Assembly (NCBI RefSeq): GCF_009914755.1
Contig: NC_060943.1
Direction: 5' to 3' (one strand)
Length of the DNA stretch: 64,000 nucleotides
Origin: the human T2T-CHM13v2.0 reference genome, Homo sapiens
The notes beneath the pieces are model-generated. The model did not search any database and was not told where the DNA came from. It saw only the letters and a program-made list of their open reading frames with translations. Position numbers and translations under genes: made by a program. Each line of letters starts with the position of its first letter. Position 1 is the first letter of the stretch. Shown here in pieces: positions 37,311 to 51,159 of the stretch.

Positions 37311-38069
37311 TTACATTTAAGACAAGTTGAATACACGTCAAATTTAGAAAATGACACAAGCCACACACAAAAAAGGAGGGAATAATATTGTTAATGTCTG
37401 TTTGCAAAAGCAGCATACGGTGTCACAGTTTCTTCCCATTTCTTGACTCTCCTCAAGATCAGAGAAAGGGAAGAGGGTGAGCTGGAATTAACTGAGCTAA
37501 GTCAGTTAACCCTCTGGCTGAATAAGGGTTGCTTCTGATGTAATAATTAGAAAACGCAGAAGCCTCACACCGTAGTTTTGCAATTTTCATGCTCTTCTGC
37601 ACAAACAATGAAGCAAATTTTAAATTAATTATAGAGCCATACATCAGTACTTCACAACTTAATGTTCCATATTAAATCAATCCACACTCACATGGATTTG
37701 GGTGCCCCCCCCTTTCTCCACCATTATGTGATTTTTTTCCCCCTCTCTATAAATGTTTCTCTTCCACCTTCTGTTTCTTTCCTTTTCTTTTTCCCATTTC
37801 GGCGTTTTCCTGTCCCTTTCTGCTCATTTGGCTTCCCTTCCTCTCCTTCTCTGACAGAGTGTTTGGCCCCATCCTGGTAGCATCCTTTTTTTCAGTCCCT
37901 GCTATTGTTTCTGATGGCTCTCTAATTTCGCGCATTTCTCCCTCTTTATCCTCCATTTCTGCTTCCCCTCTGTTCTCCCTGGAGAAGGGCGAAGGGTGTG
38001 TATCCACCCCGAGTGAGGGCTTTACCAGGGGGAGGGAAGAGGGAGTCAGAGAAGAGTTTTAAGCAGAGA

Positions 38070-38830
38070 AACGACGCGGTGGGCGGTCGGTGTCCACACT
38101 GACCTAAAGCAAAAAGGTCGGGGCCAGTACCCACTTCAGAACGATTTTAATCCGAAATGGACGCAGATCTCTAGACCCTCTCGGAGCGACGGGACTGAGA
38201 ACGTCTTAGGGCCACGCCGCGAGAGGAATGAGCAGGTTCGGGGTTTTAACCTACAGGGCGACCCCAAAACCCGACAGCGGAGCGTGGGAACCTGTGGCCC
38301 GCGAGGCGCAGGCTTGAACCCGAAAGACGGAGACTCACCCGAGAGCGCCAGTAGCCCCGCGAGATCCGCTTCCGGGTCGGCAGGAACCTGCGCGTACGCG
38401 AGTGCACTGGGGCGGCGCAAGGGGCAAGGGCAGGGGCAGGGCGCGGACAACTGTGGGGATGGGCGGGCAAATGGCGGGGATGGGCGGGGACAATGGCGGG
38501 ATGGGCGGGGACAATGGCGGGATGGGCGGGGCCTAGGGGTCGGACTGCCGGACCTCTCCTCGGCGCGTCCCAGCGACTTTTTTAGGCCTGTTTGTCGCCC
38601 AGCAGTACTCGATTCTTCACTTTTGGATTCCCTTGAATCTCTATGGTGTCCTTTGGAGCCTAGCTAAGTAAAAAATTAGAGACCTGTGGGCCCCTTATAT
38701 TGGAATCGGAGCTTAAGATGGGAAAGGTTTGCTTGAAAACGTTTCTGCGAGCGATGGAGGCGCGTCCTGCGACGAGGCGGGAGGAGCGCTGGGACCTGGT
38801 GGATGGGAGAGGGCGACGGTATAAGGAAGC
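38070..38830 (-). promoter_or_regulatory. ZNF677: CpG-island promoter and non-coding exon 1 (3' end at 38339)
   Basis: High CpG density; donor TCGG|GTGAGT at 38339/38338; ETS-like CTTCCGG (38369-38375), GCGCGTACGCG and several GGGCGGG boxes. Confidence 0.88.
38445..38531. repeat. About 21-bp promoter minisatellite (GGGATGGGCGGGGACAATGGC), about 4 units
   Basis: Direct inspection. Confidence 0.9.
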
Positions 38831-39261
38831 TCTTGGATCCAGGAACTTCTGAAATCCGGACGATTAAAATTTGTATTTAATTAAGCGAAAGCTGGAGTTG
38901 TCTGCGTAGGTGATGGAAACTGGAATGAGATGCATTTTTGTGCCTGTGCGGAGTGTACAATTTTATATTGACTTTCACTGGAACGTAATTTTTATTTCCG
39001 CTCCCCAGTCACCCAGGAGGCAGAGATGCACCATGGGCTGAGTTCCAGAGAATTTATGGGGTCAGACCCTGGGCGGTGGGGGGTGGAAGGCTGAGGCTTG
39101 GCTTTAAAAGAACGCAAAGTTCTGCTTGTATCGATCTAAATTTATTTTCCTTTATTATCCTAATGCACATTTCTTGAGATAAATTACAAATCCAAGTGCT
39201 GGATTTATTGGAGTTGGTATGTTGTGTTTTGCCTAAGTTATTAATTACTAATATACTATCG

Positions 39262-39563: not shown

Positions 39564-39926
39564 TTTAGTCTGTAAAGTCTTTATTCTCAGTTATTTGGAA
39601 GAGTATTTTTAACATAATATGTGCTTGGCAATTCTCCTGGCCAACTGAATTGATTTCTCTTGGGCCCAGAGAGGAAACTTATTGACTGGAGGCTCCCCAA
39701 GAGAAGATGAGCCCATATGGGGGTATCTGAGTAAACCAAGGTCTATCCACTGTCTCTTTGGGTCTCTGTTTTTGTAACTGGGAATTACATCTGATAACAG
39801 GTGAAGGGTGAAAAAAAAATGAGAGTGCATTTTAGCATAAAAATACATATATGTTATTTACATATAAACATACACATATAAAAATTCTATTTATTTTACA
39901 TATAAAAATACATATATGTATTTAAA

Positions 39927-40071: not shown

Positions 40072-41062
40072 TCTTTCTCTTTTCAATGTATTAAATGCAC
40101 AAGATTCCATACTTTCAAATTCCATTTTGCAGAATTATTATATTTTCATAGGTTTCCCAAATCAAATATTAATTCAAGTTTCAGTTAGTTGTTTTAAAAT
40201 AATAAATATATAGTTACATAATCTTTAAAATGATTCGTTTTCTAGCCTAAAATGCTTTATCACCTTTTATGTTTCATGTCTCATATTTTAGTGCACACTC
40301 TACCTAATGTTGTACATTAATTTCCGTGATGGGTGCCGTAGTATTTTTAGTCTTTGCAGACAGTGAAATGAGTGTTTCTGCTGGTATCTTAACATCTACT
40401 CACATTAAATACATTGGGTCATATGAAATTATTTAGTGCCTATTATAACTTATCAAGACCTATGAATATTCACTCATAAGTTATATTGATATGTAGAATA
40501 AATACTTTGACAAAAATAGGAAATTATCAAACCAAATTTATAAAGTGAACATGACAAATATTTATACATATGTAGGTGTGCGTGTATGTATGTGTGTGTG
40601 TATATGTATATATATGTGTGTATAGATATATAAAGGACACAACTAGGCAACTATTATAGCGTAGTAGTGAACACCAATGTTACTGCAACCAGGCTACTCA
40701 CGTTCAAATCTTCACTCTTCTGGTATTTAAATGAGTCACCTAATCTCCTTGTGCTTAAACTCTTTTAGAGTTGGTGAAAGGAGAATAATATGAATTCCTA
40801 CCTCATGGAGTTGTGAATATTAAATGTCAGAATAGGTACAGCATTTATAAAAGTCACTCATACATTGTAGGTGCTGTAAAAAGAAATACACGAAATGGGA
40901 AATTTGTTAACAATATATCTCTCTATATATTTCACTTTTAATATTCAGGGGGAAGAAATCGTCATAAGTGAAAGGTTATTTTCCATGAAAATGTGGCCCA
41001 CAACTCGTGTTGCCATGCAGAACCTTCTGCTTACTCAATATTGAGTGCTGGAAAATGACAGA

Positions 41063-41103
41063 ATGGCCTCTGTGGATCTGAAAATTGGAATGATCTTCCT
41101 ATT
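41063..41103 (+). pseudogene. VN1R2: Stranded ancestral 5' coding end of VN1R2 (MASVDLKIGMIFL)
   Basis: CAGAATGGCCTC start context is identical to VN1R4; upstream acceptor CCATGCAG| at 41020 is shared with VN1R4; in frame with 42161 onward once the LTR is removed. Confidence 0.9.
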
Positions 41104-42160
41104 TGTGGGCAGCAAGCCACCCAGCTGCCGAGGCAAGAGACCGAGGGCACGAGCTGTTCCAGCATAATAAAATATATAAAACAACAAGAGTTATATTAGA
41201 TCTAGATCATAGACATGATTATATATGAATATCATTAATCATTAGTTGGTAGCAATTACTCTTTATTCCAATATTATAATAATCCTCGCTCTATAATCAT
41301 AACCTAGGAAAAGCCAGGCCATACAGAGATAGGAGCTGAGGAGACATAGTGAAAAGTGACCAGAAGACAAGAGCGCGAGCCTTCTGTTACGCCCAGACAG
41401 GGCCACCAGAGGGCTCCTTGGTCTAGGGGTAACGCCAGCGTGTGGGAAGACGCCCGTTGCCAAGTGGACCGTGGTCTAGCGGTAGCGTTAGTGTCAGGGA
41501 AAAACACCCGCTATTTAGCAGACCGGGAAAGGGAGTCTCCCTTTCCCTGGGGGAGTTTAGAGAAGACTCTACTCCTCCACCTCTTGTGGAGGGCCTGACT
41601 CAGGCCCACCTGCAGTTATCCAGAGGCCTGTCTCCCTGTGATGCTGTGCTTCAGTGGTCACGCTCCTGGTCTGCCTTCATGTTCCATCTTGTACACCTGG
41701 CTCTGCCTTCTAGATAGCAGTAGCAAAATTAGTGAAAGTACTAAAAGTCTCTGATATGCAAAAATAATGGCATAAGCTGTCTCTCTCTCTCCCTCTCTCT
41801 CTCTCTGCCTTGGCTGCCAGGCAGGGAAGGGCCCCCTGTCCAGTGGACACGTGACCCATGTGACCTTACCTATCATTGGAGATGACTCACACTCTTTACC
41901 CTACCCCTTTTGCTTTGTATCCAATAAATATCAGCGCAGCCTGGCATTTGGGGCCACTACCAGTCTCCTGCTTTGTATCCAATAAATATCAGCGCAGCCT
42001 GGCATTCGGGGCCACTACCGGTCTCCGCGTCTTGGTGGTAGTGGTCCCCCAGACACAGCTGTCTTTTCTTTCATCTCTTTGTCTTGTGTCTTTATTTCTA
42101 CACTCTCTTGTCTCTGCACACGGAGAGAAACCCACCAAACCTGTGGGGCTGGACCCTACA
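41104..42160 (+). mobile_element. Solo ERVK-class LTR (LTR13-like), 1057 bp
   Basis: TGTGGGCAGCAAGCCACCCAG...GGCTGGACCCTACA (TG..CA); TSD CTATT at 41099-41103 and 42161-42165; AATAAA twice. Confidence 0.92.
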
Positions 42161-43069
42161 CTATTCCAGGTAGTTGTTGGAATCCTGGGGAATTTTTCAC
42201 TCTTATATTATTATATGTTCCTTTACTTTAGGGGATACAAGCCAAGATCCACAGATTTGATTCTCAGGCACCTGACTGTAGCTGACTCCTTGGTTATCCT
42301 ATCTAAAAGAATCCCAGAGACCATGGCAACTTTTGGGTTGAAACATTTTGACAATTATTTTGGATGCAAATTTCTTTTGTATGCACACAGGGTAGGCAGG
42401 GGTGTGTCCATTGGAAGCACCTGCCTCTTGAGTGTCTTCCAGGTGATCACCATCAACCCTAGGAACTCCAGGTGGGCAGAGATGAAAGTAAAAGCCCCGA
42501 CATACATTGGTCTCTCCAATATCCTGTGCTGGGCCTTCCACATGCTGGTAAATGCCATTTTTCCTATTTATACAACTGGCAAATGGAGCAACAACAACAT
42601 CACAAAGAAAGGAGATTTGGGATATTGTTCTGCCCCACTTAGTGATGAAGTCACAAAGTCAGTATATGCAGCATTGACATCCTTCCATGATGTTTTGTGT
42701 CTGGGGCTCATGCTCTGGGCCAGCAGCTCCATCGTTTTGGTCTTGTACAGGCACAAACAGCAGGTACAACACATCTGTAGGAACAATCTCTACCCCAACT
42801 CTTCTCCTGGGAACAGAGCCATCCAAAGCATCCTTGCATTGGTGAGCACCTTTGCATTATGTTACGCCCTTTCCTTCATCACCTACGTTTATTTAGCTCT
42901 CTTCGATAATTCCAGTTGGTGGCTAGTGAACACTGCTGCACTAATCATTGCCTGTTTTCCAACTATTAGCCCTTTTGTTCTCATGTGCCGTGACCCCAGC
43001 AGATCCAGGCTCTGCAGTATCTGCTGCAGAAGAAATAGACGATTCTTTCATGATTTCAGGAAAATGTGA
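41882..43069 (+). CDS. VN1R2: Vomeronasal type-1 receptor 2 (395 aa from the first ATG; first 93 codons LTR-derived)
   Basis: Intronless 7TM ORF with V1R motifs GILGNFSLL, HRVGRGVSIGSTCLLSVFQVITINP, LYRHKQQVQHI, FPTISPFVLM. Confidence 0.93.
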   Translation: MTHTLYPTPFALYPINISAAWHLGPLPVSCFVSNKYQRSLAFGATTGLRVLVVVVPQTQLSFLSSLCLVSLFLHSLVSAHGEKPTKPVGLDPTLFQVVVGILGNFSLLYYYMFLYFRGYKPRSTDLILRHLTVADSLVILSKRIPETMATFGLKHFDNYFGCKFLLYAHRVGRGVSIGSTCLLSVFQVITINPRNSRWAEMKVKAPTYIGLSNILCWAFHMLVNAIFPIYTTGKWSNNNITKKGDLGYCSAPLSDEVTKSVYAALTSFHDVLCLGLMLWASSSIVLVLYRHKQQVQHICRNNLYPNSSPGNRAIQSILALVSTFALCYALSFITYVYLALFDNSSWWLVNTAALIIACFPTISPFVLMCRDPSRSRLCSICCRRNRRFFHDFRKM

Positions 43070-50253: not shown

Positions 50254-51159
50254 TCATCTTTTCCAGGCAAAACAAAACCTGTATACACTGGGGTCACAGC
50301 TCATGAGAACAAAGGGGCTGAGAGTTGGGAAACATACACTCATTAAGGCTGAAGTGTTCACCAGTAAACTATTGGGATTATCCAAAAGAGCCATACAAAC
50401 TTGGAAAAGGCAGGAGAGAGTGTAAGAAGACACAAAGGTGCTCACCAGGATGAGGATGCTCTGCGTAGCTCTGTTCTCTGGGGAGGCTCTGGGGGAGAGA
50501 TCGCTCCTATCAATGTGCTGGACCCGCTGCTTGTGCCTGTGCAGTATGCAAACCATGGAGCTGCTGACCCAGAGCATGAGCCCCAGACACAACACATCAG
50601 GGAATGATAACAACATTGCACGCAGTGTCTGTGCGATTTTGTTGTTGCCTCCCCCAGAACAGTATCCCAAATCCTCGTTCACTGTGATGTTTGTGTAGTT
50701 CCATTTGCCAGTCACATACATGGGAAAGATGATGTTTACCAACATGCACACGATCCAGCACAGGAGAACAGAAAAGCCAACATGCTTGGGGGCTTTCTCT
50801 TTAAGTTTTGCCCACCTGGATTTCCTGGAGCTGACCGTGATCACCTGGAAGACACTCAAGAGGCAGGTGGTGCCAATGGACACTCCCCTGCCCACTCTAT
50901 GGAGATAGAAAACAAGTTTGCACCCAAGAGCATTGAGAAAATATCTAACCCCAAAAGCTGCCATTGTCTGGGGGACTCCTTTACAGCGGAGAGCTAAGAA
51001 GTTGGCTACAATCAGGTGCTTAACAATCAAATCTGTGGACCTTAACCTGCACCCAGTGCAGTAAAAGGAGAGATAATGGAGAAGAACAGAGAAGCTCCCC
51101 AGGACTCCCACCACGGTCTGTGATAAGATCATTCCCACTGCCACATACCGGGAGGCCAT
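50254..51159 (-). CDS. VN1R4: Vomeronasal type-1 receptor 4 (301 aa)
   Basis: First ATG at 51159 (MASRYVAVGMILSQ); intact 7TM V1R ORF with HRVGRGVSIGTTCLLSVFQVITV and FPTLSPFVLM; acceptor TTCCATGCAG| at 51209/51208. Confidence 0.94.
   Translation of the reverse strand: MASRYVAVGMILSQTVVGVLGSFSVLLHYLSFYCTGCRLRSTDLIVKHLIVANFLALRCKGVPQTMAAFGVRYFLNALGCKLVFYLHRVGRGVSIGTTCLLSVFQVITVSSRKSRWAKLKEKAPKHVGFSVLLCWIVCMLVNIIFPMYVTGKWNYTNITVNEDLGYCSGGGNNKIAQTLRAMLLSFPDVLCLGLMLWVSSSMVCILHRHKQRVQHIDRSDLSPRASPENRATQSILILVSTFVSSYTLSCLFQVCMALLDNPNSLLVNTSALMSVCFPTLSPFVLMSCDPSVYRFCFAWKR

What the first reader, a model, noticed from the sequence alone, without database searches (positions are those of the whole stretch)
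41063..43069. VN1R2 is an LTR-interrupted gene: the real start is stranded 1 kb upstream and the N-terminus is retroviral
Seen: a TG..CA LTR (41104-42160) with a perfect CTATT duplication sits inside a V1R coding sequence. Removing it and one TSD copy gives an uninterrupted 314-aa receptor starting MASVDLKIGMIFLFQVVVGILGNF. This aligns with neighbouring VN1R4 (MASRYVAVGMILSQTVVGVLGSF) and shares its CAGAATGGCCTC start context and upstream CCATGCAG acceptor. Unspliced, the ancestral ATG now reads 34 codons and stops at TAA 41165. The 395-aa ORF takes its first 93 codons from the LTR 3' end. Known: V1Rs are about 300-aa 7TM receptors with short N-termini, and most human copies are pseudogenes. 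Inference: this apparently intact V1R is either an ERV-receptor chimera or a disrupted gene that only looks intact. I cannot tell whether this has been described.
Basis: partly seen in the sequence, partly recalled or inferred. Interest (0 to 1): 0.85.

Follow-up and report, generated by a model that had tools for sequence, protein, structure and literature searches.

The report
Retrovirus-split pheromone receptor only looks intact
A retroviral remnant cuts the human pheromone-receptor gene VN1R2 just after its start codon, and a 58-base duplication inside that remnant puts a substitute start in frame, so one of the few 'intact' human receptors of this family is likely a decaying relic rather than a working gene.

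Summary
Confirmed and extended. A 1,057-bp sense solo LTR with a CTATT target-site duplication splits VN1R2 at codon 14. It is LTR13 (HERV-K HML-4). The 13 stranded codons match the N-termini of LTR-free orthologue models (snub-nosed monkey 12/13, tarsier 13/13), while all four ape proteins carry LTR-derived N-termini, so the insertion dates to the ape ancestor. New here: the 395-aa ORF depends on a 58-bp tandem duplication of the LTR's poly(A) module (41911-42026). It is absent from 36 of 36 other human copies, and the homologous ATG frame closes by codon 34 in 29 of 29 tested. Bonobo shares it; orangutan and gibbon models lack it. The receptor body diverges at about the neutral rate, the outer end of TM1 is replaced by polar LTR residues, and two AATAAA signals lie inside the ORF. 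Best reading: a relic that regained an ORF by chance (0.72). A working, testis-expressed chimera is not excluded (0.15). The LTR13 overlap was tabulated in a 2007 supplement. I found no account of the stranded start or the duplication, but key V1R papers were not available.

The parts
41013..41020 (+). Ancestral splice-acceptor candidate CCATGCAG, 42 nt before the stranded ATG (49 nt in VN1R4)
   Evidence: use as an acceptor is inferred
41063..41103 (+). Stranded ancestral start: 13 codons (MASVDLKIGMIFL) plus 2 nt
   Evidence: 13/13 to tarsier P0013 and 12/13 to Rhinopithecus P0004 and lemur P0009
41099..41103 (+). Left target-site duplication CTATT
41104..42160 (+). Solo LTR13 (ERVK, HML-4), sense to the gene, 1,057 bp
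41165..41167 (+). TAA in the LTR that ends the ancestral frame after 34 codons
41795..41820 (+). LTR pyrimidine tract and CAG|G acceptor candidate, 61 nt before the substitute ATG; the RefSeq 5' end (41798) lies in this tract
   Evidence: top score on my ad hoc scale among + strand AG sites of the window; present in 30 of 30 copies; use not shown
41858..41863 (+). Start-stop uORF ATG-TGA, 24 nt before the substitute ATG
   Evidence: ACG in 16 of 22 readable other copies
41882..42160 (+). 93 LTR-derived codons, starting at an LTR ATG
   Evidence: no Pfam family; ATG present in 28 of 29 other copies
41911..41968 (+). 58-bp unit 1 (AATAAA at 41923); two CpG transitions relative to unit 2
41969..42026 (+). 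58-bp unit 2 (AATAAA at 41981). The extra 58 nt shift the ATG frame past the stop found in other copies and into the receptor frame
42008..42048 (+). Predicted R-region hairpin of the HML-4 poly(A) module, intact
   Evidence: fold z -3.15; module described in PMC2664473 passages
42059..42115 (+). Hydrophobic LTR-derived stretch (residues 60-78), a possible extra helix
   Evidence: KD 1.85; helix 57-79 at pLDDT about 55; a similar stretch in 28 of 28 other copies
42161..42165 (+). Right target-site duplication CTATT
42161..43069 (+). V1R 7TM body, open, 302 codons plus stop
   Evidence: PF03402 E 3e-93, residues 95-378, profile 9-290; seven helices, residues 92-368

Best explanation
VN1R2 is a V1R gene cut at codon 14 by a sense LTR13, whose 395-codon frame depends on a 58-bp duplication inside the LTR, and it is likely a neutrally decaying relic that makes little or no working receptor. 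Steps: (1, shown) the LTR strands the ancestral start, whose frame stops after 34 codons. (2, inferred from protein models) The insertion came after the Old World monkey split and before the gibbon split; ape orthologues then had no in-frame start ahead of TM1. (3, shown for human copies; date inferred) After the orangutan split and before the human-Pan split, the poly(A) module duplicated; 58 nt is one more than a multiple of three, so an LTR ATG skips its stop and runs into the body. (4, inferred) The body stayed open by chance. (5, inferred) RNA comes mainly from the LTR or splices into it, as in testis, and is exposed to cleavage at the LTR's own poly(A) module inside the ORF; any protein would have a disordered 56-residue head, an accidental hydrophobic helix and a damaged outer end of TM1.
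For: Empty-site N-terminus in Rhinopithecus, tarsier, lemur, loris, colugo and seal models; LTR N-terminus in bonobo, orangutan and gibbon. 82 of 104 non-catarrhine V1Rs have Met exactly 21 residues before the TM1 Gly, as the empty-site frame does. One 58-nt unit in 36 of 36 distinct other copies; the ATG frame is open to the LTR end in 0 of 29. The orangutan model (labelled LOW QUALITY) has 72 N-terminal residues and jumps frame where the human duplication sits; the gibbon model has 67 and skips the position of the family's stop. Body differences from human are 11/302, 26/298, 18/289 and 45/302, against neutral simulations of 7.8, 18.9, 24.1 and 36.6; all fall inside the 95% ranges (divergence values recalled). 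Ape changes at conserved columns: 7 of 46, with 22% of columns conserved (deficit p 0.17), versus 6 of 112 in strepsirrhines (p 2e-7). Human differs at 8 of 67 conserved columns, against a mean of 3.3; 2 of 104 other rows reach 8. Neutral survival of the body since insertion is 0.04-0.25, among about 116 human V1R loci (PMC4264469 Table 1). The six residues before L94 have KD 0.3 versus a mean of 2.18; 1 of 89 rows is as low. HML-4 LTRs polyadenylate 69 or 84 nt after AATAAA through an R hairpin (PMC2664473 passage), which is predicted intact here. Ten AUGs lie between the ancestral acceptor and 41882.
Against: The selection tests are weak. Ape versus strepsirrhine Fisher p is 0.055; the human-bonobo (1 of 11) and orangutan-gibbon (3 of 29, p 0.07) pairs show some avoidance of conserved columns; gibbon differences lie below the neutral mean. 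No dN/dS was possible without orthologous DNA. The 395-aa frame is open in both human and bonobo. A secondary statement says all five VN1R1-5 are expressed in olfactory epithelium and respond in cell culture (PMC5416707 passage citing Shirokova 2008; primary paper not seen). VN1R2 RNA is listed as testis-specific in germ-cell data (PMC7436996 passage). The model keeps seven helices, with TM1 at 92-116. Four of the eight conserved-column departures are shared with Rhinopithecus, so they predate the LTR.
Confidence: 0.72

Rival explanations
1. Death and resurrection: the duplication revived a working chimeric receptor in the human-Pan (perhaps African ape) ancestor. The LTR would supply the promoter or the 41820 acceptor and the start codon. 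Residues 60-78 would act as a signal anchor or cleavable signal, leaving a 14-residue outer head like the ancestral 12, and the receptor would act in testis or olfactory epithelium.
For: Open 395-aa frame in human and bonobo. Strong acceptor candidate 61 nt before the ATG, which would skip 9 of the 10 upstream AUGs. Hydrophobic helix 57-79 and seven body helices predicted. Testis germ-cell listing. Reported cell-culture responses of VN1R1-5 (secondary). Precedents: IRGM and GTAp63.
Against: The hydrophobic stretch (28 of 28 copies) and the acceptor (30 of 30) are generic LTR13 features, not adaptations. Two AATAAA signals with an intact hairpin lie in the ORF. G143R, E310G and V325A at conserved columns are shared by human and bonobo but not by orangutan, gibbon or Rhinopithecus. 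There is no detectable constraint. Residues 9-58 have pLDDT under 50. TRPC2 is a human pseudogene (passage).
Confidence: 0.15
2. The locus matters only as RNA or DNA. The sense LTR13, 2.7 kb from the ZNF677 CpG-island promoter and head-to-head with it, would terminate or drive divergent transcription. The duplication would strengthen its poly(A) signal, and the ORF is incidental.
For: CpG island at 38000-39000. The duplicated unit is exactly the AATAAA module. Premature polyadenylation is predicted to be prominent for sense HERV-K elements (PMC1794541 passage).
Against: No transcript or chromatin data were available. In the full fold the first unit takes the hairpin's 3' arm and loops out the second signal (z -1.99), so a gain in strength is not evident.
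Confidence: 0.09
3. The LTR is spliced out as an intron, from GT at 41105 to AG at 42169, which would rejoin the ancestral start in frame with the body, one residue short.
For: Both sites exist and both are phase 0. The acceptor scores 2.7, within the 1.7-5.1 range of 11 ZNF677 acceptors.
Against: The donor TTT|GTGGGC scores -3.3, against 1.2-5.7 for 8 ZNF677 donors, and 40% of all GT sites in the window score as well (frequency matrix recalled). RefSeq shows one exon. The stronger acceptor at 41820 and the poly(A) module compete.
Confidence: 0.04

Closest known systems
VN1R2 (NM_173856) x LTR13 row in Piriyapongsa et al. 2007, PMC2008291 supplement 2, row 1556 (row and part 12 seen; code legend not seen)
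   Same: Same gene and element: exon 1/1, LTR13, ERVK, +/+, partial overlap. The overlap from exon start to LTR end is 279 nt, matching the 93 codons.
   Different: It is one table row among 1,395 associations. It lists a 354-bp LTR piece and says nothing of the TSD, the stranded start, the dating or the duplication.
IRGM death and resurrection (PMC2644816, abstract seen)
   Same: A retroelement breaks an ORF, and a later event in apes restores an ORF together with an ERV that changes transcription start and splicing.
   Different: There an Alu breaks the gene and a separate ERV drives it. Here one LTR both breaks the gene and supplies 93 codons, and the frame comes from a tandem duplication inside the LTR. 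No function is shown.
GTAp63 (PMC6746776, passages seen)
   Same: An ape LTR supplies the start and an N-terminal extension of a host protein, expressed in testis.
   Different: The ERV9 LTR lies upstream and adds a spliced exon to a gene that stays intact, and function is shown. Here the LTR sits inside the coding exon and replaces the native N-terminus.
HML-4 / LTR13 poly(A) LTRs (PMC5142424 and PMC2664473 passages; Baust 2000 title only)
   Same: About 1-kb TG..CA LTR with AATAAA, an R hairpin and a T-rich tract, able to polyadenylate cellular transcripts.
   Different: This copy has the signal module twice, and it lies inside an annotated ORF.
VN1R4 and other V1Rs (PF03402)
   Same: Single coding exon, 7TM body, shared 5' context.
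   Different: VN1R2 lacks profile positions 1-8 in frame; the three other stop-free human loci match from position 2.

Membership tests
Solo LTR of an ERV | TG..CA termini with a target-site duplication and no internal sequence | tested here: met
   5- or 6-bp TSD in 22 of 29 other copies
Solo LTR of an ERV | Dispersed copies, some flanking proviral internal sequence | tested here: met
   39 other loci; env fragments upstream of L004; TCTGGCG follows the LTR in 5 of 8 pattern hits (reading this as a primer-binding site is recalled)
LTR13 / HERV-K(HML-4) | Match to the Repbase/Dfam LTR13 model | not testable with these tools
   No repeat library is held. The label comes from PMC2008291 supplement 2, and LTR13 = HML-4 from PMC5142424
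LTR13 / HERV-K(HML-4) | AATAAA followed by an R hairpin and a T-rich tract | tested here: met
   (fold predicted only)
V1R family (PF03402) | Profile match above the cut-off, 7TM fold | tested here: met
   312.6 bits against a cut-off of 25; seven helices; best structural hits TAS2R14 and class A GPCRs
Intact V1R | Native start and short N-terminus in frame with TM1 | tested here: not met
   native frame stops at codon 35; 102 residues before the TM1 Gly, against 21 in 74 of 104 rows
Intact V1R | Purifying selection on the coding sequence | tested here: inconclusive
   no deficit detected, low power, proteins only
Intact V1R | Surface expression and ligand response | not testable with these tools
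   secondary statement only
LTR-exonized N-terminus (GTAp63 type) | LTR supplies the start codon and in-frame codons | tested here: met
LTR-exonized N-terminus (GTAp63 type) | Chimeric protein is made and functions | not testable with these tools
   no translation or proteomic data
Resurrected gene (IRGM type) | ORF closed in outgroups and reopened in a later lineage | tested here: met
   orangutan and gibbon models versus human and bonobo and human copies; protein models only, gorilla not seen
Resurrected gene (IRGM type) | Function or selection after reopening | tested here: inconclusive

The most novel reading that the evidence does not exclude
VN1R2 is a GPCR that died in the ape ancestor and was resurrected in the human-chimpanzee lineage by a 58-bp slip inside the very LTR that killed it. 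The LTR's U3 supplies the acceptor or promoter and the start codon, and its CT-rich U5 is read as an eighth, signal-anchor helix that delivers the 7TM body to the membrane of male germ cells.
Probability: 0.12. Interest if true: 0.82.

Novelty: new variant of a known kind. Interest (0 to 1): 0.5.

Why it matters
VN1R2 is counted among the four or five 'intact' human vomeronasal type-1 receptors and sits in GPCR lists and expression panels as a 395-aa protein. A quarter of that protein is LTR13 sequence, and the true start lies 1.1 kb upstream. Counts of intact human V1Rs, ORF-survival arguments, and cell-culture results for VN1R2 all need that correction. The locus also gives a dated two-step test of gene death and rebirth: insertion in apes, then a frame-restoring duplication in Homo and Pan. 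If the chimera works, it would be a receptor with a retroviral membrane-targeting head.

Tried and rejected
Splice-out rescue: in frame, but the donor is very weak; kept at 0.04. The hydrophobic U5 stretch as an adaptation: rejected as generic, being present in 28 of 28 copies and in unrelated LTR-derived ORFs (9 of 34 hits read). A search of shorter proteins with residues 1-110 found no truncated gorilla or other V1R chimera among the 9 read. AlphaFold could not decide whether helix 57-79 packs on the bundle (pTM 0.49). The idea that the Rhinopithecus model splices over an LTR: no register of the 5-bp repeat gives GT..AG ends (read), so an empty site is preferred. The Colobus and aye-aye models start at LFQ and are uninformative; P0014 and P0022 lack TM1. 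Rows left out of the 109-row alignment A2: 12 of the 120 listed hits (P0005, P0006, P0020, P0025, P0026, P0037, P0056, P0058, P0060, P0080, P0085, P0092: chimeric, gappy or fused). Literature searches found no text on an LTR in VN1R2. One search listed 34 of 35 papers naming it; I read passages of 5 and titles or abstract starts of the rest. PMC2203978 supplements had 0 hits. PMC4632377 mentions VN1R2 and LTR in unrelated places. PMC3566163 and PMC13090377 passages name only VN1R1 as detected. PMC11436766 names VN1R2 only in a list I could not interpret. PMC8267617 reports brain expression without VN1R2 values. Young 2010 and Zhang & Webb 2003 are not held; Rodriguez & Mombaerts 2002, Mundy & Cook 2003 and Shirokova 2008 were not seen. 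Any of them, or their supplements, may already note the LTR.

Full report
Observation. An ATG at 41063 opens 13 codons, MASVDLKIGMIFL. CTATT at 41099-41103 is followed by a 1,057-bp TGTG..TACA element and a second CTATT at 42161-42165. Unspliced, the frame from 41063 ends at TAA 41165 after 34 codons. Across the empty site the frame is 314 codons without a stop, and it aligns with VN1R4 from residue 1 (58% over 297 columns); the annotated 395-aa ORF aligns only from residue 85. The 5' flank aligns with that of VN1R4 well above shuffles (116 against a maximum of 76 in 300). The ORF from 41882 takes 279 nt, or 93 codons, from the element.

The element. A search of the genome gave 613 candidates; 40 were scored, and 39 other loci matched at 86-92%. 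The 29 fetched copies are 993-1,011 bp (one is 1,316 bp) and 91-93% identical to this one. Sixteen have perfect 6-bp target duplications, six have 5-bp ones and seven have none. One copy follows HERV-K env fragments, and five of eight pattern hits are followed by TCTGGCG, a primer-binding-site-like start (label recalled). PMC2008291 supplement 2, row 1556, lists NM_173856 exon 1/1 overlapping LTR13, ERVK, +/+, and PMC5142424 equates LTR13 with HML-4. So this is a sense solo LTR13.

Empty site and date. The stranded 13 residues match tarsier P0013 at 13/13 and Rhinopithecus P0004 and lemur P0009 at 12/13. In those proteins they run straight into the body; P0004 reads MASVDLKIGMNFLFQVVVGILGNF. 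Of 104 non-catarrhine V1Rs, 82 have Met exactly 21 residues before the TM1 Gly, as the empty-site frame does. Bonobo, orangutan and gibbon proteins all begin with LTR-derived MTHT and end that part with PVGLDPT. The insertion therefore falls between the Old World monkey and gibbon splits (roughly 28-18 million years ago, recalled). This rests on database protein models; orthologous DNA could not be fetched.

The LTR has a 58-bp tandem duplication, 41911-41968 and 41969-42026. Each unit holds an AATAAA, and the two differ at two CpG sites. All 36 distinct other copies examined have one unit (29; 7 more, whose eighth locus repeats L007). The homologous ATG is present in 28 of 29 copies, but its frame stops at codon 14-15 in 14 and at codon 33-34 in 15, and is open to the LTR end in none. 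The extra 58 nt move the frame before that stop and into the receptor frame. Bonobo has the full 93 residues. The orangutan model has 72, is labelled LOW QUALITY, and changes frame at the site of the duplication. The gibbon model has 67 and omits the position of the family's stop. The ORF was therefore closed in early apes and reopened after the orangutan split and before the human-Pan split. Gorilla was not seen: the 395-aa cluster has 14 members that I could not list.

Is the body maintained? Differences from human over the body are 11/302 (bonobo), 26/298 (orangutan), 18/289 (gibbon) and 45/302 (Rhinopithecus). Neutral simulations with recalled genome divergences give means of 7.8, 18.9, 24.1 and 36.6, and all four observations lie in the 95% ranges. 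Among apes, 7 of 46 changes hit columns at least 90% conserved (22% of columns; deficit p 0.17); among four strepsirrhine relatives 6 of 112 do (p 2e-7); Fisher p is 0.055. Human departs at 8 of 67 conserved columns, against a mean of 3.3. Four of these are shared with Rhinopithecus, N135D is shared by the four apes, and G143R, E310G and V325A are limited to human and bonobo. Against this reading, two pairs show some avoidance of conserved columns (1 of 11; 3 of 29, p 0.07), and power is low. A neutral body would have stayed open since the insertion with probability 0.04-0.25, unremarkable among about 116 human V1R loci. Four human loci give a stop-free, near-full PF03402 match; this one starts at profile position 9, the other three at 2.

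RNA. A transcript entering at the ancestral acceptor (41020) meets ten AUGs before 41882. The 395-aa product thus needs a start inside the LTR, as RefSeq's 5' end at 41798 implies, or splicing to the LTR's pyrimidine-tract acceptor at 41820. That site tops my ad hoc score (5.8, against 1.7-5.1 for 11 ZNF677 acceptors) and is present in 30 of 30 copies. Either way the RNA must pass two AATAAA signals. HML-4 RNAs are cleaved 69 or 84 nt after AATAAA with the help of an R hairpin (PMC2664473 passage), and that hairpin is predicted here (z -3.15). Cleavage would fall near 42055-42070, before any receptor codon. Signals close to a start site can be ignored (general knowledge), so full-length RNA is possible. 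VN1R2 is listed as testis-specific through germ-cell data. Removal of the LTR as an intron would be in frame, but the donor scores -3.3 against 1.2-5.7 for eight ZNF677 donors.

Protein. AlphaFold2 with 109 rows gives mean pLDDT 63: residues 1-56 without structure, a weak helix at 57-79, and seven helices from 92 to 368. The best structural hits are TAS2R14 and class A GPCRs. The six residues before L94 are VGLDPT, KD 0.3 against a mean of 2.18 in 89 relatives, so the outer turns of TM1 are replaced by polar residues. Residues 60-78 are hydrophobic (KD 1.85) and might act as a signal anchor, but 28 of 28 other copies encode such a stretch in some frame, so it is a by-product of the CT-rich U5.

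Mechanism and rivals. Best (0.72): a relic, broken in the ape ancestor and given a long ORF by a chance duplication. The anatomy is shown, the dates are inferred from protein models, and the lack of function is inferred. Rivals: a resurrected working chimera (0.15), supported by the shared human-bonobo ORF, the testis RNA and a secondary report that VN1R1-5 respond in cell culture; a purely regulatory role beside ZNF677 (0.09); splice-out rescue (0.04).

Comparison and novelty. It works like LTR exonization (GTAp63) and like IRGM's death and rebirth. It differs in that one LTR both breaks the coding exon and replaces the N-terminus, with the frame supplied by a duplication of its poly(A) module. 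It is a V1R by profile and fold, and it fails the test of a native start in frame. The LTR13 overlap is in print as a table row. Seven searches found no account of the stranded start or the duplication, but the main primary V1R papers were not available. Verdict: real, a new variant of a known kind, interest 0.5.

Noticed in passing
window 42418-42450 and VN1R4 50837-50869: VN1R2 and VN1R4 (tail-to-tail, about 7 kb apart) share an exact 33-nt stretch, and a 25-nt one at 42695. Two unnamed database proteins are reciprocal VN1R4/VN1R2 chimeras joined there (P0005, 8 members; P0085, 13 members). These are probably assembly-graph artefacts; a real inversion or gene conversion is not excluded.
   Followed up: partly
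window 38000-39000 to 41104: The locus is head-to-head with the ZNF677 CpG-island promoter (5' end 38378). Donor-like sites at 39801 and 40050 could feed the acceptors at 40948, 41020 or 41820.
   Followed up: partly
G000:C19:56268835-56269714 and C19:56439643-56440522 (L005): Two more copies of this LTR lie about 67 kb before and 101 kb after it; 9 of the 40 scored copies are on contig 19.
   Followed up: no
G000 V1R survey: Only four loci give a stop-free, near-full PF03402 match among 138 matches (134 of 248 candidates scored): C19:56346266, C19:60552504, this one and C1:246689337. C16:31934216-31934963 is split into two frames. Their names VN1R1, VN1R5 and VN1R3 are my recall by position.
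   Followed up: partly
P0004 (Rhinopithecus), P0020 (Colobus): The monkey orthologue models are also decaying although P0004 has no LTR: W198G, W217P and P193T at conserved columns in P0004, and large gaps in P0020. The LTR likely entered a gene already under relaxed selection.
   Followed up: partly
L008 (G000:C19:20066273-20070142): One LTR copy is 1,316 bp, with about 310 extra bases in its 3' end.
   Followed up: no
window 41104-42160: NCBI's soft mask covers only 41627-41937 of the LTR (annotation given with the finding), so most of the LTR-derived coding part is unmasked.
   Followed up: no
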